Source: a virus
Strand: one strand, 5' to 3'
DNA length: 64,000 bases
Virus genome (UHGV): UHGV-1430452
Shown: positions 16,479 to 56,525 of the stretch, one piece after another
Layout: every line of letters starts with the position of its first letter
How positions within the stretch are numbered: position 1 is the stretch's first letter
Program-made: the position numbers and the translations under genes
The notes under the pieces: generated by a model
Databases searched by the model: none
Seen by the model: only the letters and a program-made list of their open reading frames with translations
Told to the model about the DNA's origin: nothing

Positions 16479-16694
16479 TTAGCGAGTGTAATGGATATGC
16501 TCATTGTTTAATTCGTCGAGATGTTTAATAAAATCTAAATATCTTTTATTTCGTCTATTCTCCACAAAGTTTATAACTAACCAAGCAATCCCTACGATAG
16601 GCAAGCCAACGAATACTAATAGAAATAGTAAGCATGTAATCATAGAAACAAGCGTATTCATAAATCTTCTCCTTTCAATACTCTTCGTAATCAA
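16479..16694 (-). CDS. small membrane protein
   Basis: 71 aa; hydrophobic CLLFLLVFVGLPIVGIAWLV. Confidence 0.4.
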   Translation of the reverse strand: MITKSIERRRFMNTLVSMITCLLFLLVFVGLPIVGIAWLVINFVENRRNKRYLDFIKHLDELNNEHIHYTR

Positions 16695-23994: not shown

Positions 23995-24070
23995 GTCTAC
24001 ATAGGTTTACTCTATTTAAAGGAGGTGATGCCTGAATTCAGTTCATCGTAGAATTTACATCAAAGGAAAG

Positions 24071-27009: not shown

Positions 27010-27318
27010 TTACATCTTGTGTGAAATCTCCTCGCAATGCTTTTCCAATGATTTGATTCGTTCTTCGTGACCCTGATTTTGAATTTTCAGCTCGTCTATT
27101 TCAGATCCATGATTCGTAACCCGAGTCTTCAAGTTATTAATCATCTCGGTCAAGAAGTTTATAGTCGCGTTGAGTTTGATTATGTTTTCGTTTAGCTTTT
27201 CGATAGGCTCATTTTTAGAATGTTCTTCCTGAGTAATATCCTTCCTCAGTTTCATATAGAAAGCGAACACTGAGCCTATGACTGTTAAGACAATGATTAT
27301 AACTTGATTCTCTGCCAT
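27010..27318 (-). CDS. Membrane-anchored coiled-coil protein (lysis-associated?)
   Basis: 102 aa; N-terminal helix IIIVLTVIGSVFAFY then coiled-coil; immediately after the holin. Confidence 0.45.
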   Translation of the reverse strand: MAENQVIIIVLTVIGSVFAFYMKLRKDITQEEHSKNEPIEKLNENIIKLNATINFLTEMINNLKTRVTNHGSEIDELKIQNQGHEERIKSLEKHCEEISHKM

Positions 27319-27320
27319 AG

Positions 27321-27614
27321 TTATTTTTCCTTCGCTGTATTATTATCGTCTTTCTTACCTTCTACAAATCTACTAAATCCCTGATGTAGACCTGTAGATG
27401 CCAGACCCATAACTGCACCATATACGATGGAATCGACAGAGATGCCGCTTACTGCCGTATTCAATGCTGCGCCGACAACAGCCAGGATGACTGGAATATC
27501 GTCGTTAGGGATACGTTTTAAAAAAGTCGCATGTTTGATGATATATCCAACCACCAGACAAGCGACCATTACTACAAGTACGAAATGTTCAGTTAAAATT
27601 TTTGCGAAATCCAT
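27321..27614 (-). CDS. Putative holin
   Basis: 97 aa; two hydrophobic helices and a charged C-terminus (KKDDNNTAKEK). Confidence 0.55.
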   Translation of the reverse strand: MDFAKILTEHFVLVVMVACLVVGYIIKHATFLKRIPNDDIPVILAVVGAALNTAVSGISVDSIVYGAVMGLASTGLHQGFSRFVEGKKDDNNTAKEK

Positions 27615-40894: not shown

Positions 40895-43800
40895 TTATAT
40901 CCTCCTTTCTATCACGGCTGCTCTTACAATTTCTTTAACAGCTTCTGTAATATTGCTTCCATCATCATAAGTAAGACCGTTAATGTTATATGAAACACCA
41001 CCAACATTACCTAAGTCTTTACGAAGTCTGTTTATTGCTGAAACAACATCATCCATAGATCCATTTTGAATTCTTTCACCCATCATAGAATTTATGGTGT
41101 TTAGTCTTGACATTACTCCCAATGTAGGAGTTCCATTCAACATGCCGTTAATTGCACTAGCTCCAGATTTAATATCAGACAAATCAAGGACTGGTCTTAT
41201 TGTCGGCTGAGTGTTGATATCTCCGTCAAGAAGACTCGAAATTCTCGACATTGCTGTTTGAGTACTGTTAACAGCGTTATCGGACATTCTAGAAATAGAT
41301 TGTTTCACTAATCCTCCGAACATACCGATACCCTTAGCAAATCCAATAGGAACATATGAACCTATTTTCATGAACACCCTTGAAGGTGAATGAATAGCAA
41401 GATTAGCCCTAGCTGCTGCCGATGCTGCCGCTGCCATTGAAGCTGCTGCATTTGCCGCCGACCAAATGTTCGCTTGAATACCTGCTACAAATCCGCTAGC
41501 TACATAAGATCCAGAACTATAAAAGCTTGAATAATATCCTCTAGTAGAAGATACTGCTGAAGACAATATCGACGTTGTTGTGTTCACAACACTTGAAGCT
41601 CTACTTCGCATACCGTTTACGAATTGTGTCATTAAAGCAACGCCATTAGTTCCAAATACGGATCTTTTACTGCTAATAGCTTTAAGCATCGAGTTGATAA
41701 TATTGGTAGCTGTTGATGTTACCAATGCTTGTTTTGATTTCAAACCATTAGAGAAAGATGTAATTAAGTTCGATCCAATGTTCGACATCTTAGACGTTGA
41801 ACCACTAAATGATTTAGTAATACTATTCATAGAAGTTTGACCCAAAGTAGATACAGCAGTTTTAAACGATGCTACGCCGCTTGTGTTAAGTCCGGCCAAA
41901 CTACTAATAAAATTCTTAATCTTAGTAGCCGCTGTTATAGAGCTAGATATTGATCCGACATTTATACCTGCAACAGAATCAGAGTAACTTTTTAAAGTAC
42001 TTCCGATAGTTCCTATCTTAAAGTTTGAAACTCCACTAGAATCCAAACTTGATAGTCCCTGAATAAAAGTCTTTAATCTATTTGCCGCAGTAACAGAAGA
42101 TGTAACTTTACCAGAGTCCACATTTTCAACCGACTTAGAGTAGCTCTTCAAAGTAGTTCCAATAGATCCTATTTTGAAGTTACTAACACCACTACTATCC
42201 AATCCCGTAAGACTTGATACAAAATTTCTAAGTCTATTTGCTGATGATATGGATGATGAGACTATACCCGGGTCCATATCTTTAACGGAGTTTCCGTAGT
42301 CCTGCATAGCCTTACCTATGGAATTAATCTTGAAGTTTTCAATACCGCTTGTATCAAGACCCACCAGACTAGCTATTAAACTCTTAAGTCTTAAAGCTAC
42401 TGAGACTGCTGTGTTTACTTTAGCGATATCGATATCGGCTACAGATTCTCCGAACTTACCTATAGCCTGTCCAATATTAACCAAATGACCGTCTCCGGCT
42501 CCAACACCTGCAAAGCTACTAACACCACTTGCATCGAGATCGGCTAAAGCGGTAATCAGGTTTTTAATCCTATAAGCGGCTGTTATGGCGGTGTTTATAC
42601 CATCAGAGTTTATGTTTGCAGCGTCTGTTGAGAATGTAGTCATGGCCGAGCTGAATTTTTCGACGTATTTTGAGAATTCCTCAAGATTCATCTTACCGTC
42701 AAACCAGCCTTCTTCTGGAAGGGCTTCTTGAAGAGCTATAATAGCGCTACCTGCATTCGTTACGGATGTTACGACTGCTTCCGATATACCGTCCTCTCCC
42801 ATTCCGGTTTTAAGTTTGCCCATAGCTGTAGCAAATTGACCTATGTTTTCGCCAAAAGTTCCTAAGTCATCTTTTCCGGTAAACCAGTCGATTACTCCTC
42901 CCATATTCTCAAGAGAAGATTGTAATCCAGCAAGTTTAGTAGCCGCATTTATAATAGAAGTAATTGAATCATCATCTATTTTTGTATCTCCTAAATCGGC
43001 AAAAGCAGTTTTCATCGATCCCATAAAGCTAGCGACACTAGACCCAAAAGTCCCTAAGTCGTCCCTTCCAGTGAACCAGTCAACCACTCCTCCTATATTT
43101 TCAAGCGATGACTGCAAGCCTGATAATTTAGTAGCTGCGTCGATGATTATGCCGATTGCTTCGGTATTTATTTTGACTCCGTCTAAGCTTGAAAATGCTT
43201 TTGTCATAGATCCTATAAATAGACCTATATTTACACCAAATGTGCCGAGGTCGTCTCTACCTTTAAACCAGCTTATTACTCCACCTATTGGTTCGAGTGC
43301 TGACTGCAATCCTGCTAATTTAGTTGATCCATCGATAATGGTAGTCAAAGCTTCAGAATTAAATTCAACACCATCAAGACTCTGAAAAGCAGTTTTCATA
43401 GAGAATATAAATTGAGCTACGTTTGTTCCAAAAGTTCCAAGATCATCTCTACCTTTAAACCAACTTATTACTCCGCCTATAGGTTCCAATGACGATTGTA
43501 AATTAGCTAGAATAGTAGTAGCACTTATTATTGCGGTTAATCCTTCTGTGTTTAAAGTAATTCCTTCTAGATCAGAGAACGCAACTTTCATGGAAGATAT
43601 GAATTCTCCTACACTTTCTCCAAATGTGCCGAGGTCGTCTCTACCTTTAAACCAGCTTATTACTCCGCCTATTGGTTCAAGGCTAGATTGAAGTTTACTC
43701 AGTTCAGCAGCTCCAGTAATGATCGATGTTAAAGCTTCCGTATTGAAGGATACTCCGTCAAGACCTAGAAAAGCATTCTTCATTGAGAATATAAATTGAC

Positions 43801-46800
43801 CGACGTTAGTTCCGAAAGTCGCGAGGTCATCCCTGCCAGAGAACCAATCCATAACACCGCCTATAGGCTCCAATGACGATTGTAATTCGCTAAGTTTCGT
43901 TGCTACATTTATCACAGCGCCCATTGCCGCCTCGTCTATTGTGATTCCAGCAGAAGCTTGCGATATCGCTTTCATAGCATTGAAGAACGCAACACCATCG
44001 GTCTCAAACTTCTCCATAGAAGTACCACCGAGAGTGAATATGTCAGCGATAGAAGTACCAACTGTTGTAAATCCTATCTCTGCCATAGCACTCATTAAAT
44101 CGGACACGCCATCGAAAGATCCTGATTTAATACCACTAGCATTTTCGCTTGCTATAGCTAGTTTGTCCATGAAATCAGCAATATTTTGACCTATTTCCGG
44201 TAAACTTCCGGTAATACCTTCTCCGATTCCTCCTATGAATGCTCCGATTCCTTTGCCGATTGCGTTTCCTATTTTTCCTAATAATCCACCGCCAGCTTCA
44301 ACAAGGGACGAAAAACCTGGAATTTTAGATAACCCACCGATTGCTGCCAGAAGTACTGCTATCTCAGCTATTACAGCACCAACGGCTAATACTCCGGTCA
44401 TTGCTGGGCCGGCTAAAGCTCCAGCTCCGGCGAATACTTTCATCAATATTCCGATTACTCCGAATGCACCTATGCCTTTTAGCATAGTATCCATATCTAA
44501 ATTGCCTATCGAATCGACGATACCTTTGACAACTTGTCCGACAAAATTCATTATTGCCGATATTAATTCTGGAGTATGCTCGGCAAGACTATTAATAACT
44601 CCGATTATAAAACCGAGAAGTGAATCGACAATCTGTGGTGCATACTGTTCTAATGCGTCTAAAACGCCTAAGAGCAGTTTCAGAAAACTTTCAGCCAATT
44701 GAGGTGCATATTCTCCTATAACTTTTGCGATTTCGACGATACCTCGACCTATTACTTCAGCAATTTGTGGAATCAATCCTAAAATACCGGTGATTATAAC
44801 TGTTATTGATGCGACAAGCGCTGTGGCACCAGCAGTTCCAGCAGTAGCAAGAGCTGTGAATCCAGCTGATAGAGCAAGTATACCAACGCCAATTCCAGCT
44901 ATAGCTACAGCAAATATAGCCATCGCAGCGGATAAACCAAGTATTGCCGGAGTGAGTGGACTCAGAAGAGCTCCAGCTACTCCTATTACTACAAAGGCTC
45001 CAGCAAGAGTTACGAGACCTTTTACTATGCTCTCCCAACTCATAGATCCTAATGATTTCAATACAGGTGTTAAAATTGCTAATCCAGCAGCTGCAACAAC
45101 TAATGCGGCAGACCCCTTAAGAGATCCACTCATGGCTTTTAATCCAATAGATAGCTCGACCAAAGCTATTCCAAGTACAACGAGTCCTTTTCCTATACTC
45201 TCCCAGCTCATCGATCCTAATGATTTTAAGACTGGAGTTAATATAGCAAGTGCTGACGCCATCAAAAGCATTTGACCGCCGAACTTAGCGATAGATCCAC
45301 TACCCTTGCTCATAATTTTAGAAGCTAACACCAGCATTGTAACAATACCTAATATTCCAGCTCCACCTTTAGCTAATTCGTTCCAACTCATAGAACCCAA
45401 ACTCTTACCAACAGCAGCCAAAATGCCAACCGCAGCTGACATGATAAGCATCTGTCCAGCAAATTTGGTTATAGACTTACTTTCAGTATTCATGAGTTTG
45501 GCAGCACCAACTAATATAGCGACTATTCCTAATATTCCGGCCCCACCTTTGGCTAATTCTTCCCAACTCATTGAACTGAGAATTTTAGCGACTCCAGATA
45601 ACGCTGCTATTGCTGCTGATAATATAAGCATCTGTCCAGCAAATTTGGTTATAGACTTACTTTCGGTATTCATAAGTTTAGCAGCCGCGACGAGTATAGC
45701 TACCATTCCACCAATACCAACGAGGCCTTTTGCTACACCGTTCCAATCAAGTCCAGCTATAATTTTCATAGCGCCTGCTAATATAAGAATAGCTGCTCCG
45801 AGTCCAATCATCTGAACAGTTCTAGCTATACCTGACAAACTTGATACTATACCAGATAAAGGTTTGACACTTTTGCTGTTTATTTTTTCAAGCACTGCTA
45901 ATGCAGATATCAACTCTACAAACAAACCGCCTATTGCGCCTAAAGAACTTCCGAGTTTATCCTCGTCTATTCCAGATATGACAAAAAGAGCCGCTGCCAG
46001 TATTCCAATAGCACCCGCTATTTTTAGCAATGTTCCGGCTTTAAGATTCTGTTGCCATGATTCCAAACTTCCCTTAACGCCATCAAGTATTTTTTTAACG
46101 TTATCTAAGAAACTTATTTTTTCGAATGGATCAGATAATCCTTTAATAAAGTTTCTTATGGCTAGTAATATTCCAGCAAACAATCCGCTGTTTAATACTT
46201 CGAAAATATCGCCTTTACCAAAGGCATCGGCTATCATATTACCTATATCGGAAAAAGCTTCTCCGATGGCCGCGCCAACCGACTTTATAGTGTTCCATAG
46301 ACCGGAAAAGAAGCCAAGAAAACCTTGAAGTGTAGGAGAAATCTTAAAACTCTCAATAAGTGAGCGTCCAAACTCTGCTATTTTTGAAATCCCGTTGCTA
46401 AGAAATCCAACAATTTTATCAACTGCGTCGCCAAACAGATTTCCTTCTACTATGGAGTCTCTCACATTCGAGATAAAATCTCCAAAAGAACTCGTTGCAT
46501 CCAGTATTCCTCCACCAAGTCCGGTGAAGTTTCCAATAATATCTAGAGCGCCTTTTCCAACAGCTTTAAAAGCCTCTATAACAATATCGATAGCGGAAAA
46601 GATTCCTTTAAATGTAGATTTTATTTTAGATGCAGCGCCTTCACTTACTTTTAAAGTATCAGTGAAAGCTTTGAATCTATCAATCATACTTACTACTTGG
46701 TCGACTGTAGTAGGTGGAAATATCTCTCTAAAAGCTTCTTTTATCGGTTTTATTATATCTCCAAGGAATTTGAATATATTTTTCAAACCCTCTATAATTT

Positions 46801-48442
46801 TTTCTCTACCGCCAAGCTCGGTTATTCCATCGATAAGACCATCTATGTTGTCTTTTAATTTATTCGTAGATTCGTTTGCTTCATTTAGCGCTTTTAATGT
46901 AGCGTCATCAACGATACCTGTTATTTCTAAATCGTTAGCTTCCTGAAAAGCTTTAATAGCTGACTCTGTGGCACTTCCGAAAATTCCATCAGCACCAGAA
47001 TCGCCAATATCATAGTTAAGGCTTTGTAATGCTTTTTGTACTTTTGTTACGTCGTCTCCTGTATTACCTTTCGATAAACCGGCTTCGACTCCACTTAAAT
47101 CTACAAGTTCGCCTTTTAATCCGCTAACAGCTTCTTTTAAAATATCAGAAGATATGGCACCAGATTGAAAAGCTTTTTCTAGAGAACCATATTTTTTTAT
47201 GATCTCGTCCATATTAACGCCATGGTCCTCAGCAATCGATCTAACTTTTTCCTCAAAAGTATCGGTTTCTACACCAGCTTCATTTATTTTTTTTACAAGC
47301 TTATCCCAGTTAGAAGACATCGCGCCTTCCAATAATTCGTTACGAGATTTCGCTGATGATTCAACCATCTTTCCAATGGTATCTGAAATTCCAGTGAACA
47401 ATTCTTTGGAGTCTTCAAAATCACCGACAAGTATTCTCCAAGTTTGACCCCATCCAGATTGGAGAGATTCTTTTACCGTATCTATCAGCTGTGTGAATGT
47501 TTTTACTTTTGTAGCAGCGTCTTCAGCGTCCTTCGCTAAAGCCATAATATCGTTTGCTTGAGATTCGCTATAACCTTGGGCAATAAGATCGGCCTTACTA
47601 TATGCGCCAGACAATTGGTTAAGAGTTTCAGTTAATACCTCGGTCGTTAACCATTCACCTTTTGTTAGGCTTTCTCTAAAGCTGCCATATGTATCAATAG
47701 CTTGTTTAGCGCCTGTTCCCAAAAGTTCAGACGTTCTAACAAGTGCGTCCTGAAATACCTTACCACCCATACCGGCATTAACAACTGAGTTCCAGTCCAT
47801 AAGACTAACTTTACCTGCCGCCAATGCCTGAGAAAGCTGATACATCGCAGTAGATGCCTGTTGAGAAGTTGATCCAGAAACTGCGGCCAAGTTCGCAATA
47901 CCTTTAATAGCATTAACTGAGGTATCAAGTTTTACACCAGCTGCTGTAAACGTACCGATATTACGAGTCATTTCCGTAAAATTGTAAATCGTCTTATCGG
48001 CATATGTATTTAGCTCATCTAAAGCCTTATTTACAATATCAACATTAGTGCCTTCCTGCCTTGTATTGGATAGAATTGTCTGAATAGCACCAATCTGAGT
48101 TTCGTATTCTTGGAAACCGCTTTTAACCGGATCTATAGTTAATGCTGATATCATACGTTTACCAGTGTTAACAGCCTGGTTAGTGATGTTTGCTAAAGCA
48201 GTTACACCAGCGACCTGTAGTGCTGAAAATTTAGCCTGAACTGTCTCTATACCACTGCTCATTCCTGCAAAGCTAACACCTTTAGCAGCCTTACCGACAT
48301 TCTCCAACCCTTTGGAGGCACCAGATAGATTTAACTTTTGTTTGAGCTTATCGAGAGTTGACATACTGGTTGCGACTCCGCTCTCAAACTGCTTATTGTC
48401 GAACCGCATCTCCAAGACTCTGTTGTCAATAGTCGTACTCAT
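40895..48442 (-). CDS. Tail tape measure protein (2515 aa) with peptidoglycan-binding domain, hydrophobic segments and two internal repeat arrays
   Basis: TMP-like N-terminus; PG_binding_1-like GNTGDDVTKVQKALQSLNYDIGDSGADGIFGSATESAIKAFQ; repeated LQSSLEPIGGVISWFKGRDDLGTFG and SGVSNFKIGSIG units. Confidence 0.9.
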   Translation of the reverse strand: MSTTIDNRVLEMRFDNKQFESGVATSMSTLDKLKQKLNLSGASKGLENVGKAAKGVSFAGMSSGIETVQAKFSALQVAGVTALANITNQAVNTGKRMISALTIDPVKSGFQEYETQIGAIQTILSNTRQEGTNVDIVNKALDELNTYADKTIYNFTEMTRNIGTFTAAGVKLDTSVNAIKGIANLAAVSGSTSQQASTAMYQLSQALAAGKVSLMDWNSVVNAGMGGKVFQDALVRTSELLGTGAKQAIDTYGSFRESLTKGEWLTTEVLTETLNQLSGAYSKADLIAQGYSESQANDIMALAKDAEDAATKVKTFTQLIDTVKESLQSGWGQTWRILVGDFEDSKELFTGISDTIGKMVESSAKSRNELLEGAMSSNWDKLVKKINEAGVETDTFEEKVRSIAEDHGVNMDEIIKKYGSLEKAFQSGAISSDILKEAVSGLKGELVDLSGVEAGLSKGNTGDDVTKVQKALQSLNYDIGDSGADGIFGSATESAIKAFQEANDLEITGIVDDATLKALNEANESTNKLKDNIDGLIDGITELGGREKIIEGLKNIFKFLGDIIKPIKEAFREIFPPTTVDQVVSMIDRFKAFTDTLKVSEGAASKIKSTFKGIFSAIDIVIEAFKAVGKGALDIIGNFTGLGGGILDATSSFGDFISNVRDSIVEGNLFGDAVDKIVGFLSNGISKIAEFGRSLIESFKISPTLQGFLGFFSGLWNTIKSVGAAIGEAFSDIGNMIADAFGKGDIFEVLNSGLFAGILLAIRNFIKGLSDPFEKISFLDNVKKILDGVKGSLESWQQNLKAGTLLKIAGAIGILAAALFVISGIDEDKLGSSLGAIGGLFVELISALAVLEKINSKSVKPLSGIVSSLSGIARTVQMIGLGAAILILAGAMKIIAGLDWNGVAKGLVGIGGMVAILVAAAKLMNTESKSITKFAGQMLILSAAIAALSGVAKILSSMSWEELAKGGAGILGIVAILVGAAKLMNTESKSITKFAGQMLIMSAAVGILAAVGKSLGSMSWNELAKGGAGILGIVTMLVLASKIMSKGSGSIAKFGGQMLLMASALAILTPVLKSLGSMSWESIGKGLVVLGIALVELSIGLKAMSGSLKGSAALVVAAAGLAILTPVLKSLGSMSWESIVKGLVTLAGAFVVIGVAGALLSPLTPAILGLSAAMAIFAVAIAGIGVGILALSAGFTALATAGTAGATALVASITVIITGILGLIPQIAEVIGRGIVEIAKVIGEYAPQLAESFLKLLLGVLDALEQYAPQIVDSLLGFIIGVINSLAEHTPELISAIMNFVGQVVKGIVDSIGNLDMDTMLKGIGAFGVIGILMKVFAGAGALAGPAMTGVLAVGAVIAEIAVLLAAIGGLSKIPGFSSLVEAGGGLLGKIGNAIGKGIGAFIGGIGEGITGSLPEIGQNIADFMDKLAIASENASGIKSGSFDGVSDLMSAMAEIGFTTVGTSIADIFTLGGTSMEKFETDGVAFFNAMKAISQASAGITIDEAAMGAVINVATKLSELQSSLEPIGGVMDWFSGRDDLATFGTNVGQFIFSMKNAFLGLDGVSFNTEALTSIITGAAELSKLQSSLEPIGGVISWFKGRDDLGTFGESVGEFISSMKVAFSDLEGITLNTEGLTAIISATTILANLQSSLEPIGGVISWFKGRDDLGTFGTNVAQFIFSMKTAFQSLDGVEFNSEALTTIIDGSTKLAGLQSALEPIGGVISWFKGRDDLGTFGVNIGLFIGSMTKAFSSLDGVKINTEAIGIIIDAATKLSGLQSSLENIGGVVDWFTGRDDLGTFGSSVASFMGSMKTAFADLGDTKIDDDSITSIINAATKLAGLQSSLENMGGVIDWFTGKDDLGTFGENIGQFATAMGKLKTGMGEDGISEAVVTSVTNAGSAIIALQEALPEEGWFDGKMNLEEFSKYVEKFSSAMTTFSTDAANINSDGINTAITAAYRIKNLITALADLDASGVSSFAGVGAGDGHLVNIGQAIGKFGESVADIDIAKVNTAVSVALRLKSLIASLVGLDTSGIENFKINSIGKAMQDYGNSVKDMDPGIVSSSISSANRLRNFVSSLTGLDSSGVSNFKIGSIGTTLKSYSKSVENVDSGKVTSSVTAANRLKTFIQGLSSLDSSGVSNFKIGTIGSTLKSYSDSVAGINVGSISSSITAATKIKNFISSLAGLNTSGVASFKTAVSTLGQTSMNSITKSFSGSTSKMSNIGSNLITSFSNGLKSKQALVTSTATNIINSMLKAISSKRSVFGTNGVALMTQFVNGMRSRASSVVNTTTSILSSAVSSTRGYYSSFYSSGSYVASGFVAGIQANIWSAANAAASMAAAASAAARANLAIHSPSRVFMKIGSYVPIGFAKGIGMFGGLVKQSISRMSDNAVNSTQTAMSRISSLLDGDINTQPTIRPVLDLSDIKSGASAINGMLNGTPTLGVMSRLNTINSMMGERIQNGSMDDVVSAINRLRKDLGNVGGVSYNINGLTYDDGSNITEAVKEIVRAAVIERRI
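42800..43950. repeat. Tandem in-frame repeats of about 190 bp inside the tape measure gene
   Basis: Near-identical DNA blocks, e.g. around 43241 and 43610 (CCAAATGTGCCGAGGTCGTCTCTACCTTTAAACCAGCTTATTACTCC); boundaries approximate. Confidence 0.6.
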
Positions 48443-48816
48443 ATCTTAGTAACCTCCCTCCAGGCCTCTTCTGCCATTTTGTCAAAAATAGGCTGAATCG
48501 CAGGATTGATATAATCTCTCCCTTGAACCCAGCCTCCAGTACCAGTCCCATGACCATATTGCAAAATAATAGCGATTGGTACACCTTTATTAATGTTAGA
48601 GTTTGTAAAAGTAATCTTTGCTGATCCGGATGTATTCTCAATTTCGTATCCCCACGATTTAGCAGTCAATCCAGATTCTACAGGAGTAGCAGACATAAGA
48701 GCAGCCACCCCTTCCCGACCATATTTGTCGAGTACGCTGAGCTTTGCATTCCCTTTAAGTTTCTCAAAATATCGAGTAACTTTAGAGAAGTCTCCCTTAT
48801 GTCTGAAACTAATCAT
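48439..48816 (-). CDS. hypothetical protein, tail-module
   Basis: 125 aa immediately upstream of the tape measure gene. Confidence 0.5.
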   Translation of the reverse strand: MISFRHKGDFSKVTRYFEKLKGNAKLSVLDKYGREGVAALMSATPVESGLTAKSWGYEIENTSGSAKITFTNSNINKGVPIAIILQYGHGTGTGGWVQGRDYINPAIQPIFDKMAEEAWREVTKI

Positions 48817-48831
48817 TTTGATCTTTCTCCT

Positions 48832-50550
48832 TTACAGTAGCTCGTTAACTCGATCCTGAATTTTCTGAATCATGTTGTGATCGTATCCAGCTTTTGCGAG
48901 GGCATTAATTCGTGCATCTCCATTACCGTATTTTCCGGCAATGACATCACGGGCTACATTATCAATCACTATCTGATTTACTTTCTTCTGCACAGTGTCT
49001 GGATTATAACCAGCTTTCTTGAGAGCAGACACACGAGCATCACCATTACCCCATTTTCCAGCTAAAACCTCTTTAGCTACTTCATCGATAGATTTAGTAG
49101 GTTTTGCAGGAGCTTTAAGTAGTTCATTCACTTTCTTCTGTACAGTGTCTGGATTATAACCAGCTTTCTTGAGAGCAGACACACGAGCATCACCATTACC
49201 CCATTTTCCAGCTAAAACCTCTTTAGCTACTTCATCGATAGATTTAGTAGGTTTTGCAGGAGCTTTAAGTAGTTCATTCACTTTCTTCTGTACAGTGTCT
49301 GGATTATAACCAGCTTTCTTGAGAGCAGACACACGAGCATCACCATTACCCCATTTACCGGCGATTACTTCTTTAGCAATTTCATCGATAGATTTGGTCG
49401 GTTTTGGCGTAGATGTAGGTTTAGATGTTGGTGCTGGTGTGGAAGAACTTTTCGCATATTTTGGTCTAGCAAAACCACGAATCATACCCCAGCCAACCGG
49501 AATGGTACGTCTTGCTACTGCTTCTCCTCTGTTACCTTCAATCGCTGTGATTTGTCCGTTTGAAACAGATTCCACATACCCGATATGATCAGAATATCCG
49601 TCGTTTGGCTGAGTCTTATCATCCCAGTTATAAACAATTACATCACCAGGTTTCGGAGTAATGGTGCCGTCCTCGACCCAAATGCCTTTCTGCTTAAAAA
49701 TCTTAATATGTTCCTCACAACCAACTTCTGTACCGATGAGATCGACTGCTCCGGATTTGATAGCTGCTGCTGATACTGTACAATCACACCATTCATCATT
49801 AGGTTTAATAGCGTATCCGCGAGCCAAAGGTTTGTGAGAATTATAGATGTTAAGAATCTCAATATATTTACCGTTAGCTTCAGAATAACCGAGCCAACTT
49901 CTCATAACATTAAGAACGTCCTGTGCTGTTACACCCAATTCCGTATCCTCCTGTTTTCCGTAAAAATAGTTCATGTCGACTTTACCTTTAATACCGCCTA
50001 CAGTTCCGGAACTCGTATACTGATGAACCAAACAACCGTAATCTGCTTTTCCGTTATAATCAGCGAGCCAGAATTTGTACTGTTTAATCAGATCATGATT
50101 ATACCAATTTCGATAGTAGTCGATATTTGCGTAGATTCCAGCTTTGTATCCCTGAGATTCTACGTACTCACAAAAGATTCTTGTAAAGTTATTACATTCA
50201 TTTTTACCAAGTCTCACACCTTTTGCAGCTGCTTTCTTGACTGTGTCATATTCGAAATCTGCGAAGATGATTGTGTTTTTATCAAGACCAGCTTTTCTAA
50301 CAACATCAACACAGAATTTTGCTTCGTCAAGTGCGCCCTGTTCGTTTAAGGCATAAATAAAATGGTAAGTTCCTATAATCGGAATCTTGTTGTTTTTACA
50401 CCCATTGACATACTCATAGAATTTTGAATCTACTGTCTTCCTGTAAGAAGATCTAAGAATCGCGAACTCTATTCCGGAGGACTTGACTTTAGAAAAATCT
50501 ACATCTCCCTGCCAATAGCTGATATCAATTCCTTTCTTCACAATCATCAT
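48832..50550 (-). CDS. Endolysin: GH25 muramidase + Cys/His peptidase domain (CHAP or NlpC/P60-like) + tandem CW_7 cell-wall-binding repeats
   Basis: 572 aa; GH25-like GIDISYWQG; Cys...His block; repeated IDEVAKEVLAGKWGNGDARVSALKKAGYNPDTVQKKVNELL. Confidence 0.88.
   Translation of the reverse strand: MMIVKKGIDISYWQGDVDFSKVKSSGIEFAILRSSYRKTVDSKFYEYVNGCKNNKIPIIGTYHFIYALNEQGALDEAKFCVDVVRKAGLDKNTIIFADFEYDTVKKAAAKGVRLGKNECNNFTRIFCEYVESQGYKAGIYANIDYYRNWYNHDLIKQYKFWLADYNGKADYGCLVHQYTSSGTVGGIKGKVDMNYFYGKQEDTELGVTAQDVLNVMRSWLGYSEANGKYIEILNIYNSHKPLARGYAIKPNDEWCDCTVSAAAIKSGAVDLIGTEVGCEEHIKIFKQKGIWVEDGTITPKPGDVIVYNWDDKTQPNDGYSDHIGYVESVSNGQITAIEGNRGEAVARRTIPVGWGMIRGFARPKYAKSSSTPAPTSKPTSTPKPTKSIDEIAKEVIAGKWGNGDARVSALKKAGYNPDTVQKKVNELLKAPAKPTKSIDEVAKEVLAGKWGNGDARVSALKKAGYNPDTVQKKVNELLKAPAKPTKSIDEVAKEVLAGKWGNGDARVSALKKAGYNPDTVQKKVNQIVIDNVARDVIAGKYGNGDARINALAKAGYDHNMIQKIQDRVNELL
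48981..49430. repeat. Three near-identical 150-bp tandem repeats (plus one divergent copy upstream) encoding the CW_7 repeats
   Basis: CTTTCTTCTG(C/T)ACAGTGTCTGGATTATAACCAGCTTTCTTGAGAGCAGACACACGAGCATCACC units at about 48981, 49132 and 49282. Confidence 0.8.
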
Positions 50551-51107
50551 CCTTTCGAATTGAATTTCTTTCTTCGAGCTGCATTCATTTCAGCATAACG
50601 ACTCATTAATTCTCGCTTACTTGTCTGTTTAGGTGGCTCATTGTGAGCACTACATACCCTTATCAAAGTAATAAGTCTATTAAGATGCCATTTTTCACAC
50701 TCAAATGGAATATTGTTTGCAATCATCCAATAATATATAAGCTCTGACGTTATGATCTCTCGATTTTTCTTTCCAGATCTTCTGTCATTGATAGTAGTTG
50801 CTGTCATTGGAGCATAAATATAGTCAGTTATTTGCTTTAAGTTATCTTCACTTAACCGACCATACACACTTGGATCAACATTCTTATTGAGTGTCATACA
50901 CCTTATGTAATCTATTGTTTCTTCAATGGTTTTCTCTTTATTTGTATAAAAAGGTTTACACCATTTTGATTCCCATTTTGAAAGAGAGATGAGTGAATGT
51001 TCTAATTGTAGTGTCTGCTCTTTCTGAGCTGGCACGGGTATAAACACTTGATTTCCTTCATCCCATAATTCGTCAGCTTCTCTAGCAGGTACTATAATCT
51101 GAATCAT
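50547..51107 (-). CDS. hypothetical protein, tail-module
   Basis: 186 aa; own RBS GGAGGG. Confidence 0.5.
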   Translation of the reverse strand: MIQIIVPAREADELWDEGNQVFIPVPAQKEQTLQLEHSLISLSKWESKWCKPFYTNKEKTIEETIDYIRCMTLNKNVDPSVYGRLSEDNLKQITDYIYAPMTATTINDRRSGKKNREIITSELIYYWMIANNIPFECEKWHLNRLITLIRVCSAHNEPPKQTSKRELMSRYAEMNAARRKKFNSKG

Positions 51108-51136: not shown

Positions 51137-51550
51137 TTAAGCTCCTGGAAGCAGATTCTTTGAATTAGCTTCCTGTGCAACATCAGCCGGAACGATGCCG
51201 TTAATAAATGCCGCTGCTGCTTCTGCGTCTGTAGCAAGTTCCATGAAGAGTGTGGAATAAGCTTCTGTCTGTGAAAACTTTCTTGACAGTGGTCTTCCGT
51301 CCTCATCAAGTTTCATGAAACCTTTACCATCCGGAGCCTTTTCTCCATATGCTTTAAGAATAAGATCTTTAAAGATAGCTACGATTGTCGGAGTATCCTG
51401 TGCTGCCACGACTTTCTCAATCATCTCAGCGAATCCACCAACTGTAGATAATTCCATCTCCATAATTTCTGCTTTAGAAAGGTTGAAGTAATATGTATCT
51501 TCTCTTTCTACTCCGTTGTAATCTGTGTATTTAATAGCTTTTTTTAACAT
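51137..51550 (-). CDS. Putative tail assembly chaperone
   Basis: 137 aa; size, acidic composition and position just after the major tail gene. Confidence 0.5.
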   Translation of the reverse strand: MLKKAIKYTDYNGVEREDTYYFNLSKAEIMEMELSTVGGFAEMIEKVVAAQDTPTIVAIFKDLILKAYGEKAPDGKGFMKLDEDGRPLSRKFSQTEAYSTLFMELATDAEAAAAFINGIVPADVAQEANSKNLLPGA

Positions 51551-51646
51551 GTTGTTCTCCTTTCAATTTTTCAACGTTTAATAATTAAAAAAAAAGACCC
51601 CACCTATTGCTAAGCGGGGCCTATCGTTATTCCATTACTTAGTTAC

Positions 51647-52312
51647 TTACGCACCTGTCGTAGTTTTCATCATAGTAGCAACCTCATCCGGGAGTGGAAG
51701 TCTTGCTTCTGTATCCTCGTCACCGTAAAGAACTGCCTCCAGTGCTGCCAGTTTAGTTGGATCAGCTGTGGTAGAGTCGATTATGAGATGAGATGTAGGT
51801 TTGAAATTAGCTACAGATACCGGAGTAGTACTACACTCCCAGGACATAGTAGCCGCTTCCGGACTATCATTTACAGTCGCACGAGATACTTCGGAAGGAG
51901 CTGCAAGAGCACCGTATACCAGATGCAGTTTGTAACCATGTGATTCGCCCTCTGTATCATTACCAATAAGGCTTCGATAAGATAAACCGAAATTTTTACG
52001 TTTCTGCTGTCCAATCTTAACGCCGGTTGCAATTTCTCCTTCACCGTTACATTCTGCGAATTCATCGGGATACATATAAGCTTCGATTGTGAAACCAAAT
52101 TCCTCAGCGGACATAAGTGTCACATACTTAATGTTATCTGCATAGAGCGGTGTCGGTTCTGCTCCAGATGGTGATTCTGTTACAGCTGTAAGACCATTCC
52201 ATGCTGCTCCTTTCGGATAGTTTCCATCAGTTCCCATTGGATAAATTACGCCATGATCGACGCCAGTTTCAAACAAACGTTCGCCTGTTGCGTCCCATAC
52301 AAGTTTAGCCAT
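51647..52312 (-). CDS. Putative major tail (tube) protein
   Basis: 221 aa; between head-tail connector genes and the chaperone. Confidence 0.55.
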   Translation of the reverse strand: MAKLVWDATGERLFETGVDHGVIYPMGTDGNYPKGAAWNGLTAVTESPSGAEPTPLYADNIKYVTLMSAEEFGFTIEAYMYPDEFAECNGEGEIATGVKIGQQKRKNFGLSYRSLIGNDTEGESHGYKLHLVYGALAAPSEVSRATVNDSPEAATMSWECSTTPVSVANFKPTSHLIIDSTTADPTKLAALEAVLYGDEDTEARLPLPDEVATMMKTTTGA

Positions 52313-52966: not shown

Positions 52967-54904
52967 TTAGGCAGTTTCTTTCACGAATTCAAGAGCTACT
53001 GCGGAATACGGTTTAACAAGTGTACCGGAGCAACGTGTCTCCATAAGATACTTCTGCTTGTTGTAATCGATATCGAAATCATCGAAGAAGTTGATTTCTC
53101 CACCCTTATCTGTACCTACGTTGTAATCTTTAAGATTTACATAGATACCAGCAAGCTCATATGTCTTATTTTCATCGTCTGTTCTTGTAAGACCTTCCAT
53201 TACCGGAACCGGAACGATTTCTCTTACGCGAAGAGATGCTGCAAGTTTCTGTACGCTATCATAGATAACACGTCCGTTTGTATCTTCAATGAGCAAGCAA
53301 TCTGTAAGCATATCCTCAGACATGAACATATCAGGGTTGCCAGATCCTTTATAATTCTTTCTGGATTTGATGCAAGCTTTGATGAATGCCTTAGCTTTCT
53401 CTTCAGCAGTAGCGGAATCGCTTACATTGATAGCTGCTTTAACTGTGAAAAGATCTTCCATCTTCCAGATAGGTCTGATGCAGTCCTCATTGATTTTATC
53501 GTTAGCCTCTTCAACCGGATCTCTTCCATCACCGATAAGGAATGCGCGAGCAAGTTCCTCATCAAGCATCATACGAACTTCTCTCTTCAGCCATGGAAGA
53601 ATATCGAAATCTGTAATATCAAGCATGTCATCGCGATCTAATGCCTGTTTCTTGTATACAGTTGTTGGATTTGTTACACGTTTGAGAAGCTTAAATACTT
53701 CTTCAATTTTAAGTTTGCCTTTCTGGTATCCCTTTGCTCTAGCCTGTGCTGCTGTGATGTCAGCAAAGATAGTTTTGATACGGGAGAACGGTGTGTGATG
53801 TACTCCGCCAAGTACTTTTGATACCCAATCGTCATTACGTTTGATAAATTCCGGTTCATTGTTAAGATTCTTTGCATCCGGGAATAAGATGTCAATGTCT
53901 GTGATACCATGAGCAAGCACTGCCTCTTTAAGAGAACCTGAGCGTTTCGCATCTTCGAAAATCGCAGTCATCTCGGAGTGTGTAAGCACATCATCTGCCA
54001 TAGGGGTTTCATTGTCGAATACGTTGTGTTTCATATTTTTGTTTCCTCCTTCATTTTCATCATCTTCTTCGGTTTCAACACCAGCATCTTCTAATGCCTG
54101 TCCGATCATAGCGTACACAACAGTTTTCTGTTTCTCAGAAAGAGTGTTGAATACATCAGCTACAGTTTCTTCTTTGTTTTCTCCCTTTGTTTCTTCCTCG
54201 GCATGTTTTACTTCTTCCTCAGAATGGGTTACTTCTTCTTTGTCTGGTTTATCATCGTTTTCTTCTTTGATACCAGCATCTTCTAATGCCTGTCCGATCA
54301 TAGCGTACACAACAGTTTTCTGTTTTTCAGAAAGAGTGTTGAATACATCAGCTACAGTTTCGTCCTTATTTTCTTCGGCATTATGTTTTTTGGTTTCTTC
54401 TGCCATTTTTTCTTCTCCTTTCTCAGAAGTATCTGCGTGGAACAATGACTCCACATTTTCGATATATTCGCCTGAGCTGATATATCCCTCTTCATAAGAA
54501 TCTTCGCCATGCATCATGACAGACTCTATTACTGCGCCTGGATTAGCACCAGCTAAAACCAAACTAAGCTCACGAATGACTCCGTGAACTACATTACTTC
54601 CCTGCTGTTTAAGTCTGTTGGCATATATGGAAAATCTATTCACATCACCATGCTGAACCAGCAATTTAGCATTCTGCCCTGATTCCGTATCGTTAAATGT
54701 GCAATATGCATACACACCTTCGTCCCTGTTTTCCAGCAAGGCATGACCGAGCACTTCATCTACGCTATTATGCTGATGATTCCAAACTAACGGTACAGTT
54801 TCACCATCGCACTCTTTGAATGCATCTTTCATGATGACTCTACCGTCCGCACACAGCATGTCAGCTTTAGTAGCCCAGCCAGAACAATCATATGACTTAG
54901 CCAT
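52967..54904 (-). CDS. Fusion of prohead protease-like domain, acidic scaffold-like duplicated linker and HK97-fold major capsid protein
   Basis: 645 aa; N-terminal S78-like block (WNHQH...VLG...GDVNRFSIY); duplicated EETVADVFNTLSEKQKTVVYAMIGQALEDAG; C-terminal 370 aa is the only capsid-sized candidate. Confidence 0.65.
   Translation of the reverse strand: MAKSYDCSGWATKADMLCADGRVIMKDAFKECDGETVPLVWNHQHNSVDEVLGHALLENRDEGVYAYCTFNDTESGQNAKLLVQHGDVNRFSIYANRLKQQGSNVVHGVIRELSLVLAGANPGAVIESVMMHGEDSYEEGYISSGEYIENVESLFHADTSEKGEEKMAEETKKHNAEENKDETVADVFNTLSEKQKTVVYAMIGQALEDAGIKEENDDKPDKEEVTHSEEEVKHAEEETKGENKEETVADVFNTLSEKQKTVVYAMIGQALEDAGVETEEDDENEGGNKNMKHNVFDNETPMADDVLTHSEMTAIFEDAKRSGSLKEAVLAHGITDIDILFPDAKNLNNEPEFIKRNDDWVSKVLGGVHHTPFSRIKTIFADITAAQARAKGYQKGKLKIEEVFKLLKRVTNPTTVYKKQALDRDDMLDITDFDILPWLKREVRMMLDEELARAFLIGDGRDPVEEANDKINEDCIRPIWKMEDLFTVKAAINVSDSATAEEKAKAFIKACIKSRKNYKGSGNPDMFMSEDMLTDCLLIEDTNGRVIYDSVQKLAASLRVREIVPVPVMEGLTRTDDENKTYELAGIYVNLKDYNVGTDKGGEINFFDDFDIDYNKQKYLMETRCSGTLVKPYSAVALEFVKETA
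54089..54365. repeat. Direct repeat of about 90 bp (two copies) inside the protease-capsid fusion gene
   Basis: CTTCTAATGCCTGTCCGATCATAGCGTACACAACAGTTTTCTGTTT(C/T)TCAGAAAGAGTGTTGAATACATCAGCTACAGTTTC at about 54089 and 54279. Confidence 0.7.
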
Positions 54905-54943: not shown

Positions 54944-55279
54944 TTAAACCGAAGCAGTGAAAGTAACAGCTGTTGAACTTCCATCACTAGCGATAAGACC
55001 AGTAGACTTAAGGCATACCGGTTTGTAATATGTATCTGTCATGTAAACAGTTACTCCTTTAAGGAATAACTCCTGGAGATCTTCCTTCATGACTTTCTCC
55101 GCTTTTGCTTCCTTATCGTAGAACAGAACTTTTGAAGAATTTGCATATAAAACAACTGTTTTTACAAACTTTTCATCATATGCTGCATTAACTGTTTCTC
55201 TTTTAGCCATAATTATTTTCCTCCATTTGTTAATAATGTGTATTGTTTCACAATCATAGGTCCGAAATTGGTGTGTCAC
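54944..55279 (-). CDS. hypothetical head-module protein (true start may be the internal MAKRETV...)
   Basis: 111-aa ORF overlapping the portal 3' end. Confidence 0.4.
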   Translation of the reverse strand: MTHQFRTYDCETIHIINKWRKIIMAKRETVNAAYDEKFVKTVVLYANSSKVLFYDKEAKAEKVMKEDLQELFLKGVTVYMTDTYYKPVCLKSTGLIASDGSSTAVTFTASV

Positions 55280-56525
55280 CTAATGAGGGTTCTTCCTCTG
55301 GTGGAATATCTTCTTCACTTATATCCGGAGTTGGATTCAATCCAGTTCCTGTTTGATTGATGTTGCTATTTACTAACTGGTCAGCTTTTGGATCATCTGA
55401 TGGTTTCATACCAATAATCTGTCGAACCTCATTAGCTGTAAGTATTTCATTCTGCGTAAACACTCCAGCGATTTCAGCCAGTTTACTAAGAGGAACGAGT
55501 CTAAACGAATCTCTGAAGAATTTGATAGTCTGATTCTGAGATCGTGCTGTCTTTGTTAAAAACTTGCGTTTCATCTCATCGACGATTGCTGCGACAATTG
55601 GCTCAATAGTCCTTGAATAGTAGTTCAGCATTTCTTCTTCGCTCGCTGATCCATCGAGTATCGCCTGTGTGATTCCAAGCTGGCTGTATAGTTGAGCAGT
55701 TAGATATTCCACTTGTTTCATCAGGTTATTGTCGAGAGGTCTGTTTAACTGCACTATCTTTTCAGTTCCATCAACATAGCCAATACCGTAAGTGGAACCG
55801 CTTAGCTGTTGCTCCAGGTCCGCACGTCTTTCATTAGCTAGTTTTCGCCGAGCTTCAGATTTAATAGAATATGGTAGCTGAATAATCATGTCCAATTTTC
55901 CACTACTGATACGTTCGTCCATTCTATCGAGAAGGGCAAGTTTTCGCGTAAGACGCTGCATGGTAGAATTATGCTCATTGATAACCGCATATAAAGGATT
56001 CTCAACTATAGCTACCATTTTCTTTTCAAGCTTAATGTCTTCTCGTTCTCCTGTTCGTTCATTGTAAACTCTAACTTTCACATGGTTTGGATACCATTCA
56101 AGAATTTTACCAGTTCGCATGGAAAGTATTTTATATGATTCAGTTTGAGATGGATCTATATCTGTATCAACAGGAACTATTGCTACACAGCCCTCGTCAA
56201 GCATAGACATAACGATATCTTGTGTGAATGCTCTACCAGTCTGATCGATATTCGCTTCAAGATTCAGACATTTATTAAGAGTCGAATCAATCTTTTCTAT
56301 AAATCTACCGTTACTGTCTATACGACAGTGATTAATATTTATAGAAGAGACATCCAAAGCTATTCGATTAAAAATAGCAGTAACAACAGATCGCTCATTA
56401 CCCCTAGTGAATCTCGGCCTATCCGGTCTATTTGAATATCCTGGACCAATGTTACGAGAGTCATATGTCGGATCTCGGTTCATGAAAGCATTCCACGAAT
56501 GCCGAAGTCTATCTATAAAATCCAT
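55254..56525 (-). CDS. Portal protein
   Basis: 423 aa; between terminase and capsid/protease; acidic C-terminus. Confidence 0.7.
   Translation of the reverse strand: MDFIDRLRHSWNAFMNRDPTYDSRNIGPGYSNRPDRPRFTRGNERSVVTAIFNRIALDVSSININHCRIDSNGRFIEKIDSTLNKCLNLEANIDQTGRAFTQDIVMSMLDEGCVAIVPVDTDIDPSQTESYKILSMRTGKILEWYPNHVKVRVYNERTGEREDIKLEKKMVAIVENPLYAVINEHNSTMQRLTRKLALLDRMDERISSGKLDMIIQLPYSIKSEARRKLANERRADLEQQLSGSTYGIGYVDGTEKIVQLNRPLDNNLMKQVEYLTAQLYSQLGITQAILDGSASEEEMLNYYSRTIEPIVAAIVDEMKRKFLTKTARSQNQTIKFFRDSFRLVPLSKLAEIAGVFTQNEILTANEVRQIIGMKPSDDPKADQLVNSNINQTGTGLNPTPDISEEDIPPEEEPSLGDTPISDL

What the first reader, a model, noticed from the sequence alone, without database searches (positions are those of the whole stretch)
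48832..50550. Modular endolysin located inside the tail gene cluster, about 21 kb from the holin
The only recognisable lysin (GH25 + Cys/His peptidase + 3-4 CW_7 repeats) lies between the chaperone-like genes and the tape measure gene, while the holin candidates are at 27010..27614 after the fibre genes. Lysin and holin are usually adjacent. The CW_7 repeats are encoded by three near-identical 150-bp tandem DNA repeats, suggesting recent expansion.
Basis: partly seen in the sequence, partly recalled or inferred. Interest (0 to 1): 0.5.

Follow-up and report, generated by a model that had tools for sequence, protein, structure and literature searches.

The report
Endolysin gene inside the tail operon
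This temperate gut phage keeps its only cell-wall-degrading exit enzyme between tail-assembly genes, 21 kb from its holin; that is the usual place for it in a very large family of related gut phages, so the arrangement is real but ordinary for the lineage.

Summary
Window 48832-50550 (-) encodes a 572-aa GH25 + CHAP + 4xCW_7 peptidoglycan hydrolase. It is the only recognisable lysin in the 64 kb. It lies between a chaperone-like gene (X) and a 125-aa HK97-gp10-like gene (Y) that directly precedes the 2515-aa tape measure gene. A Hol44-type holin lies 21.2 kb downstream.

It is not a misassembly. Three independent human-gut assemblies are 99.9% identical to the window and have the same gene order. 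The position is also not peculiar to this phage. Of 147 related phage and prophage loci that have both X and Y, 108 carry a lysin in exactly this X|Y slot. These lysins span at least 8 catalytic families, and 31 loci also carry small membrane proteins that look like holins. 27 slots are empty. DNA homology to relatives breaks exactly at the X stop and the Y start, so the lysin behaves as an exchangeable cassette.

Three relatives with different slot lysins keep a holin 78-83% identical to the window's, about 18-20 kb away.

The 150-bp CW_7 repeats are real. The near-identical assemblies have exactly one copy fewer.

Verdict: a canonical holin-dependent endolysin in a position typical of its lineage. 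A virion-associated role is unlikely but not excluded. Interest is modest.

The parts
48832..50550 (-). Endolysin gene, 572 aa: GH25 muramidase + CHAP peptidase/amidase + 4 CW_7 cell-wall-binding repeats. No signal peptide or N-terminal hydrophobic segment: the GH25 domain starts at residue 8.
49990..50529 (-). GH25 catalytic domain (aa 8-187); D9, D98-x-E100 and D192 conserved
49531..49791 (-). CHAP domain (aa 254-340); C255 and H322 conserved
48835..49386 (-). CW_7 module (aa 389-572): three near-identical repeats plus one divergent repeat
   Evidence: PDB 5i8l, Cpl-7 CW_7 module, E 6e-33
48976..49425 (.). 150-bp tandem DNA repeat, about 3 copies (99% and 85% identity to the reference copy). 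Three near-identical assemblies have one copy fewer.
50547..51107 (-). Gene X (186 aa, phrog_4338, no Pfam hit), the upstream flank of the slot. It has its own Shine-Dalgarno sequence. Its stop overlaps the lysin ATG (ATGA). There is a weak hint of a tail-assembly-chaperone-like fold.
48439..48816 (-). Gene Y (125 aa, phrog_5 'tail completion or Neck1'; its L003 homologue has a weak HK97-gp10-like hit), the downstream flank of the slot. It starts 15 nt after the lysin stop and overlaps the tape measure start by 4 nt.
51137..51550 (-). Tail assembly chaperone (Pfam Phage_TAC_17). It ends in a double stop, and no frameshift signal was seen.
51595..51622 (-). Terminator-like hairpin (12 pairs plus a T-run) between the major tail gene and the TAC-X-lysin-Y-tape-measure block
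51647..52312 (-). Major tail protein (phrog_2645)
40895..48442 (-). Tape measure protein, 2515 aa (TMP_3; PG_binding_1 at aa 461-519; no catalytic hydrolase domain found)
27321..27614 (-). Holin (Phage_holin_5_2 / Hol44 family, phrog_1129), same strand, 21.2 kb downstream of the lysin
27010..27318 (-). Protein with an N-terminal TM segment and a coiled coil, weakly XhlA-like; a possible lysis accessory

Best explanation
The gene encodes the phage's single, canonical, holin-dependent endolysin. The enzyme is cytoplasmic and bifunctional, combining a GH25 muramidase with a CHAP peptidase/amidase. A Cpl-7-type CW_7 module anchors it to the cell wall.

The gene is embedded in the late tail-assembly transcription unit, in the order TAC, X, lysin, Y, tape measure. 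It is translationally coupled to X and has no promoter of its own. The enzyme would therefore accumulate during virion assembly. It would reach the peptidoglycan only when the Hol44-type holin, encoded 21 kb further down the same strand, permeabilises the membrane.

The position is not accidental. The X|Y junction is the standard lysis-gene slot of a very large lineage of temperate siphophages of gut Clostridia, which are structurally related to Lactococcus phage 1706 (Nevevirus) and to Arthrobacter Gordon-type phages. Lysin cassettes in this slot are swapped between phages by recombination in the conserved flanks. This adapts the enzyme to the host wall, while the holin locus after the tail fibres stays put.

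Shown: the domain content, the uniqueness of the lysin, the gene context, the lineage-wide slot, the cassette boundaries and the holin conservation. Inferred: co-transcription, the timing of expression, holin dependence and recombination as the exchange mechanism.
For: 1. Identity. GH25 + CHAP + 4xCW_7 with intact catalytic residues and a C-terminal binding module. All PHROG hits are endolysin families. There is no N-terminal hydrophobic segment.

2. Only lysin. Pfam scans of the other ORFs scanned in the window found no other PG-hydrolase catalytic domain. A holin is present.

3. Operon embedding. The ATG overlaps the X stop. A 15-nt gap containing AAGGAG precedes Y. Y overlaps the tape measure gene. 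Promoter-like sites are not above chance, and the only terminator-like hairpin lies upstream, after the major tail gene. GC content is uniform.

4. Lineage-wide slot. Scans with Y found more than 586 IMG/VR relatives and 213 genome relatives. Of 147 loci with both X and Y, 108 have a lysin in the slot, 27 are empty and 12 hold another or an unassigned insert. Pfam counts for the IMG/VR set and the genome set respectively: Amidase_2 40 and 18, CHAP 12 and 21, GH25 6 and 10, Amidase_3 3 and 5, Phage_lysozyme2 7 and 5, Glucosaminidase 2 and 3, Phage_lysozyme 2 (IMG/VR only), M15 2 (genomes only). The binding domains are SH3, CW_7, SPOR, LysM and PG_binding.

5. Lysis-cassette character. In 31 loci the slot also holds one or two small proteins with 1-3 predicted TM segments, several with charged C-termini as in holins, next to the lysin. 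One example is Clostridium leptum DSM 753.

6. Cassette boundaries. By blastn, about 105 of 160 loci align over X and about 153 over Y, but only about 8 over the lysin. Breakpoints pile up at the X stop and at the Y ribosome-binding site and start.

7. The split arrangement is conserved. Three IMG/VR contigs carry a holin 78-83% identical to the window's, 17.6-19.7 kb downstream of Y. Their slot lysins differ: Phage_lysozyme in two and Amidase_2 in one. Holin homologues at 66% identity or more, with one exception (L177), have no lysin within 3 kb. Most of those at 60-62% have one immediately downstream.

8. Not an artefact. Contigs L243-L245 from other gut samples are 99.9% identical over up to 21.5 kb with the same order.

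9. Literature. Endolysins are exchanged by homologous recombination through flanking homology, and holins are not endolysin-specific (PMC9371310). Endolysins occupy several genome locations in Cluster AZ phages while holin-like genes stay after the minor tail genes (10.1101/2025.05.26.655371).
Against: - Nothing here demonstrates lytic activity, transcription or holin dependence.
- The gene lies among virion and assembly genes, where virion-associated hydrolases are usually found.
- The tape measure protein next door has a peptidoglycan-binding domain.
- 12 slot enzymes carry the Pfam domain named 'Phage tail lysozyme'.
- The small TM proteins in the slots of relatives match no curated holin family in Pfam or PHROGs, so 'holin-like' rests on topology alone.
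- The 160 loci analysed are those closest to the window's Y, not a random sample of the lineage.
Confidence: 0.82

Rival explanations
1. Virion-associated (entry) lysin. The protein is built into or carried by the tail, perhaps with help from the neighbouring chaperone-like proteins. It digests peptidoglycan locally during infection, either instead of or in addition to acting as the exit endolysin.
For: The gene lies inside the tail assembly block between chaperone-like genes and the tape measure gene. The tape measure protein has PG_binding_1 but no catalytic domain. Some slot enzymes of relatives combine 'Phage tail lysozyme' with CHAP or Amidase_2. From memory, that combination is reminiscent of staphylococcal tail hydrolases.
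Against: It is the only lysin in the genome, and a holin is present, so an exit enzyme is needed. It has four C-terminal wall-binding repeats, and the slot enzymes of relatives carry SH3, SPOR, LysM or CW_7 modules. From general knowledge, these are typical of endolysins and unusual for virion hydrolases. 31 relatives have holin-like TM genes beside the lysin in the slot, including next to lysozyme2-type enzymes. Non-homologous enzymes replace each other at the slot, which is hard to reconcile with a conserved structural contact. 27 relatives have an empty slot with X and Y adjacent, so tail assembly does not need a slot product.
Confidence: 0.07
2. A second, unrecognised endolysin sits next to the holin: the 183-aa ORF at 26362-26913 or the 211-aa CBM_5_12 protein at 27639-28274. 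In that case the tail-module enzyme would be accessory.
For: Both ORFs flank the holin and have no assigned function. The 211-aa protein has two carbohydrate-binding CBM_5_12 stretches.
Against: Neither ORF hits any PG-hydrolase family in Pfam or PHROGs. Holin homologues at 66% identity or more, with one exception (L177), likewise lack a recognisable lysin within 3 kb. The lineage places its lysin in the X|Y slot in 73% of loci.
Confidence: 0.05
3. Assembly artefact or very recent one-off insertion. The lysin gene was moved into the tail cluster by misassembly, or by a recent horizontal insertion peculiar to this genome.
For: The position is non-canonical. Tandem repeats can confuse assemblers.
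Against: Three independent assemblies show the same order at 99.9% identity. GC content is uniform. The gene junctions are tightly overlapping. The same architecture, at about 60% identity, occupies the same slot in Cuneatibacter caecimuris and other Lachnospiraceae prophages.
Confidence: 0.01

Closest known systems
Cpl-7 lysozyme of pneumococcal phage Cp-7 (GH25 + CW_7 repeats; PDB 5i8l, 4cvd)
   Same: It has a GH25 muramidase domain and a C-terminal CW_7 wall-binding module made of tandem, near-identical repeats of about 48-50 aa. The PDB match of aa 385-528 to 5i8l has E 6e-33.
   Different: The window enzyme has an additional central CHAP domain and four repeats, and its gene is not next to a holin. 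That Cpl-7 has three identical repeats is recalled from memory and was not tested here.
Bifunctional streptococcal phage endolysins (B30/PlyGBS CHAP+GH25+SH3b; lambdaSa2 with CW_7 repeats); recalled from memory
   Same: They also combine two catalytic domains with a wall-binding module, use the CHAP/GH25 pairing, and use CW_7 for binding.
   Different: The domain order here is GH25-CHAP-CW_7. Sequence relatives are gut Clostridia enzymes (3756 homologues), not streptococcal ones. The best phage-database hits are only 35-41% identical.
Relocated endolysins of actinobacteriophages (Arthrobacter Cluster AZ, bioRxiv 10.1101/2025.05.26.655371; Gordonia phages, PMC9671378)
   Same: [quoted passage not shown] Lysis genes can be separated by 13-29 kb.
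   Different: In those groups the alternative positions are the right arm, the first gene, or upstream of the structural genes. A slot between the chaperone genes and the tape measure gene was not described in what I read.
Lactococcus phage 1706 group (Nevevirus P118, P092, P162, P078) and Arthrobacter Gordon/Qui-type phages
   Same: They share the module major tail, TAC_17, X, Y, tape measure. X is 34-52% and Y 34-54% identical in protein sequence.
   Different: In P118, X and Y are adjacent and the amidase lysin lies at the far right end of the genome. In Qui the X-Y interval holds tail genes rather than a lysin.
Virion-associated peptidoglycan hydrolases of Gram-positive siphophages (e.g. 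HydH5, Tal2009); recalled from memory
   Same: They are encoded within the tail module and can combine CHAP with a lysozyme domain.
   Different: They generally lack wall-binding modules and coexist with a separate endolysin. Here there are four CW_7 repeats and no other lysin.

Membership tests
Canonical (holin-dependent) phage endolysin | Peptidoglycan-hydrolase catalytic domain(s) with catalytic residues intact | tested here: met
   GH25 and CHAP Pfam hits above the curated cut-offs. D9, D98, E100, D192, C255 and H322 are invariant in alignments.
Canonical (holin-dependent) phage endolysin | C-terminal cell-wall-binding module (typical for Gram-positive hosts) | tested here: met
   Four CW_7 stretches, E 1e-73; match to the Cpl-7 CW_7 structure 5i8l.
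Canonical (holin-dependent) phage endolysin | No secretion signal; a holin is encoded by the same phage | tested here: met
   The N-terminus runs straight into GH25 at residue 8 with no hydrophobic stretch. Holin at 27321-27614. No dedicated signal-peptide predictor was available.
Canonical (holin-dependent) phage endolysin | Gene adjacent to the holin (lysis cassette) | tested here: not met
   The two genes are 21.2 kb apart in the window. Adjacency to holin-like TM genes is seen in 31 of 147 relatives at the same slot. Adjacency is usual but not defining.
Canonical (holin-dependent) phage endolysin | Lyses host cells from within at the end of infection | not testable with these tools
   Needs genetics or biochemistry.
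Virion-associated peptidoglycan hydrolase | Protein present in the virion | not testable with these tools
   Needs virion proteomics.
Virion-associated peptidoglycan hydrolase | Coexists with a separate endolysin and usually lacks a wall-binding module | tested here: not met
   No other lysin domain in the window; four CW_7 repeats present.
Virion-associated peptidoglycan hydrolase | Encoded in the tail module | tested here: met
   Lies between X and Y, upstream of the tape measure gene.
CW_7 (Cpl-7-type) wall-binding repeat family | Tandem repeats of about 40-50 aa matching PF08230 | tested here: met
   (4 stretches, 243 bits against a cut-off of 25).
1706-like / Gordon-like siphophage tail module | Order major tail, TAC_17, X (phrog_4338), Y (phrog_5), tape measure, with Y overlapping the tape measure start | tested here: met

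The most novel reading that the evidence does not exclude
The lysin could serve both exit and entry. Encoded between chaperone-like genes and the tape measure gene, a fraction of the protein might be loaded into the tail. There it could act with the tape measure protein's PG_binding_1 domain to breach the wall at infection, while the cytoplasmic pool lyses the cell at the end.

A milder version is already largely shown here. The X|Y junction is a defined exchange hotspot in an abundant gut-phage lineage, where lysis cassettes, and occasionally anti-defence genes such as Tad2-like and Acb2/Tad1-like ones, are swapped.
Probability: 0.07. Interest if true: 0.6.

Novelty: new member of a known kind. 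Interest (0 to 1): 0.27.

Why it matters
Practical points:
- Annotators looking for the lysis genes of this very abundant group of gut Clostridia phages should look between the chaperone-like gene X and the gene Y that precedes the tape measure gene, not only after the tail fibres. X has at least 8000 protein clusters in the search.
- The slot is a ready-made catalogue of more than 100 diverse endolysins, each matched to a host and each with known flanks. This is useful for enzybiotic mining against Lachnospiraceae and Oscillospiraceae, and for host prediction.
- Three non-homologous lysin types occur with closely related holins (78-83% identical to the window's) encoded about 18-21 kb away. 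This supports the view that holins are not endolysin-specific.

None of this changes the current understanding of phage lysis.

Tried and rejected
- Programmed frameshift joining TAC_17 to X. Rejected: TAC_17 ends in TAA TAA and X has its own GGAGG-ATG.
- Independent promoter or terminator around the lysin. Promoter-like sites are at chance level, and the only terminator-like hairpin lies upstream, after the major tail gene.
- Foreign composition. GC is 0.36-0.44 throughout, with no step at the gene.
- Second lysin near the holin or elsewhere. None found.
- Holin family assignment for the small TM ORFs in the slots of relatives. No curated holin family hit in PHROGs or Pfam, so they remain 'holin-like' by topology only.
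- Solved-structure relatives of X and Y by sequence. None found.
- Literature search for a described lysin slot between the chaperone and tape measure genes. Nothing found in 4 searches. The Faecalibacterium phage paper PMC5883640 does not discuss lysis genes. The original phage 1706 paper was not in the library.
- Two Faecalibacterium phage records contain Y homologues, but I did not locate or inspect them.
Full report
**1. The observation**

The ORF at 48832-50550 (minus strand, 572 aa) carries Glyco_hydro_25 (aa 8-187), CHAP (aa 254-340) and four CW_7 stretches, all above Pfam's curated cut-offs. Every PHROG hit is an endolysin family. PDB sequence matches are the CW_7 module of Cpl-7 (5i8l, E 6e-33) and several GH25 lysozymes. 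The expected catalytic residues are invariant among homologues: D9, D98-x-E100 and D192 in GH25, and C255 and H322 in CHAP. The N-terminus runs directly into the GH25 fold and has no hydrophobic segment.

Tandem Repeats Finder reports a 150-bp period with 2.9 copies and 95% matches at 48976-49406. In register, two copies are 99% identical and the third is 85% identical. A fourth, divergent CW_7 follows.

**2. Surroundings**

Nearly all genes are on the minus strand. The order is:
- large terminase, 57490-59223
- portal, 55254-56525
- protease-capsid fusion, 52967-54904
- major tail protein, 51647-52312
- Phage_TAC_17 chaperone, 51137-51550
- X, 50547-51107 (phrog_4338)
- the lysin
- Y, 48439-48816 (phrog_5, 'tail completion or Neck1'; its L003 homologue has a weak HK97-gp10-like Pfam hit)
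- tape measure protein, 40895-48442 (2515 aa)
- distal tail and fibre genes
- a Hol44-type holin, 27321-27614
- a TM/coiled-coil protein, weakly XhlA-like, 27010-27318

The lysin stop is 21,218 bp from the holin start.

The lysin ATG overlaps the X stop (ATGA). Y starts 15 nt after the lysin stop, behind an AAGGAG, and Y overlaps the tape measure start. Promoter-like sites are not enriched. The only terminator-like hairpin (51595-51622) lies between the major tail gene and the chaperone gene. GC content is uniform.

Pfam scans of the other ORFs scanned found no second peptidoglycan-hydrolase catalytic domain. The tape measure protein has a PG_binding_1 domain only. A serine integrase (24071-25657) and an HTH repressor (23398-23994) on the plus strand mark the phage as temperate.

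**3. Not an artefact**

The closest database protein, P0001, is identical to the window lysin except for the exact absence of one 50-aa CW_7 repeat. Three human-gut contigs that encode it are 99.9% identical to the window over up to 21.5 kb. They have the same gene order and a single 150-bp indel inside the repeat array.

One caveat applies: short-read assemblers can collapse 99%-identical 150-bp copies. Orthologues at about 60% identity in the same slot have 3 or 2 CW_7 copies that are diverged from each other.

**4. The position is a property of the lineage**

X and Y are conserved in Lactococcus 1706-like phages (Nevevirus P118) and in Arthrobacter phages; Y alone is also widespread in Gordonia and Streptomyces phages. 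In P118, X and Y are adjacent and the lysin lies at the far right end of the genome. In Arthrobacter phage Qui, tail genes fill the interval.

Three unannotated human-gut contigs each have a different lysin between X and Y: Amidase_2+SH3 in two and CHAP+CW_7 in one.

Scanning with a Y alignment found more than 586 relatives in IMG/VR and 213 in bacterial genomes. The genome hits are mostly Clostridia: Blautia faecis, Lachnospiraceae, Ruminococcus, Hungatella, Clostridium leptum DSM 753 and [Ruminococcus] torques ATCC 27756. A few hits come from bins labelled with other phyla. The 160 best loci were analysed, and 147 of them contain both X and Y:

| Slot content | Loci |
|---|---|
| Recognisable lysin only | 77 |
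| Lysin plus small proteins with 1-3 predicted TM segments (holin-like topology) | 31 |
| Empty | 27 |
| Other or unassigned insert | 12 |

Pfam counts on the 116 large slot ORFs are given below as IMG/VR set + genome set:

| Catalytic family | Count |
|---|---|
| Amidase_2 | 40 + 18 |
| CHAP | 12 + 21 |
| GH25 | 6 + 10 |
| Amidase_3 | 3 + 5 |
| Phage_lysozyme2 | 7 + 5 |
| Glucosaminidase | 2 + 3 |
| Phage_lysozyme | 2 |
| Peptidase_M15 | 2 |

The binding modules are SH3, CW_7, SPOR, LysM and PG_binding. The window's own architecture recurs at about 60% identity in the slots of Cuneatibacter caecimuris and other Lachnospiraceae prophages.

At the DNA level, about 105 of 160 loci align to the window over X and about 153 over Y, but only about 8 align over the lysin. 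The alignment ends pile up at the X stop and at the Y ribosome-binding site and start. This is the signature of a cassette exchanged between conserved flanks.

**5. The split from the holin is also conserved**

Three IMG/VR contigs appear in both the Y scan and the holin scan. They carry a holin 78-83% identical to the window's, 17.6-19.7 kb downstream of Y, while their slot lysins are Phage_lysozyme (two contigs) or Amidase_2 (one contig).

Holin homologues at 66% identity or more, with one exception (L177), have no lysin within 3 kb. Most of the more distant ones (60-62%) have a lysin immediately downstream. Closely related holins therefore occur with at least three unrelated lysins. This fits experimental evidence that holin lesions are not endolysin-specific and that endolysins are exchanged by homologous recombination (PMC9371310).

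**6. Mechanism**

The best-supported explanation (confidence about 0.8) is a canonical cytoplasmic endolysin. It is made from the late tail-assembly transcript and released by the distant holin. Its gene sits in the lineage's normal lysin slot. Co-transcription, timing and holin dependence are inferred, not shown.

The main rival is a virion-associated entry hydrolase. The location and the neighbouring PG_binding_1-bearing tape measure protein favour it. Five observations argue against it:
- There is no other endolysin in the genome.
- The enzyme has wall-binding repeats.
- 31 relatives have holin-like genes in the slot.
- Non-homologous enzymes are freely interchangeable at the slot.
- 27 relatives have empty slots.

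A cryptic second lysin beside the holin, and misassembly, are both unlikely.

**7. Comparison with what is known**

The enzyme is a member of well-known module families (GH25, CHAP, CW_7/Cpl-7). Variable endolysin placement, with holin-like genes remaining after the minor tail genes, has been described for Arthrobacter Cluster AZ phages (10.1101/2025.05.26.655371). Long-distance separation of lysis genes has been described for Gordonia phages (PMC9671378).

I found no paper describing a lysin slot between the chaperone-like genes and the tape measure gene in 1706-like gut phages. The library is incomplete, and the original 1706 paper was not available.

**8. Verdict**

The 'displaced gene' reading should be replaced by 'lineage-typical lysin cassette slot'. 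In novelty terms this is a new member of a known kind, with a modestly useful comparative-genomic generalisation. Interest is about 0.27.

Noticed in passing
window 46886-47062 (aa 461-519 of the tape measure protein, 40895-48442): The 2515-aa tape measure protein contains a PG_binding_1 domain (E 1.5e-18) but no detectable catalytic hydrolase domain. The same domain is recorded for the tape measure protein of the near-identical contig L243.
   Followed up: partly
window 51595-51622 (-): A strong terminator-like hairpin (12 pairs plus a T-run) lies directly after the major tail gene. It could attenuate expression of the downstream chaperone-lysin-tape-measure block.
   Followed up: no
L021 4713-4985 and L024 1144-1416 (IMG/VR relatives): In these relatives the X|Y slot holds a 90-aa Tad2-like (Thoeris anti-defence) gene (E 1e-25) after an Amidase_3 lysin. 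Another small slot ORF in the set hits the Acb2/Tad1 hairpin domain. The slot therefore also collects anti-defence genes.
   Followed up: partly
L002 (Arthrobacter phage Qui) 1525-8443: [quoted passage not shown]
   Followed up: no
window 11374-12312, 14387-15214, 16675-17451 (-): Three paralogous DUF6353 proteins (E 1e-57 to 1e-88), each with an N-terminal hydrophobic segment, lie in the early/replication region.
   Followed up: no
window 59267-62630 (-): Four consecutive proteins upstream of the large terminase each start with the DUF7211 motif (…HYGVKGMKWGVRRYQ…). Their function is unknown.
   Followed up: no
window 54054-54182 and 54248-54374: The prohead protease-capsid fusion gene (52967-54904) contains an internal direct repeat of about 130 bp at about 91% identity. 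It encodes a duplicated acidic linker segment.
   Followed up: no
window 23398-25657 (+): An HTH repressor-like gene and a large serine recombinase lie on the opposite strand, just beyond the holin region. The phage is temperate. Near-relatives of its proteins are labelled 'uncultured Blautia sp.'.
   Followed up: partly
[not shown]
   Followed up: partly
window 27639-28274 (-): A 211-aa protein immediately upstream of the holin carries two CBM_5_12 carbohydrate-binding stretches and an unassigned N-terminal half. Its role is unknown; it could be a fibre accessory or a wall-binding protein.
   Followed up: no
L152 ([Ruminococcus] torques ATCC 27756), X-Y interval: The interval is 1578 bp long but has no ORF of 60 aa or more on the gene strand. 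It could be a decayed lysin, a gene on the opposite strand, or masked sequence.
   Followed up: no
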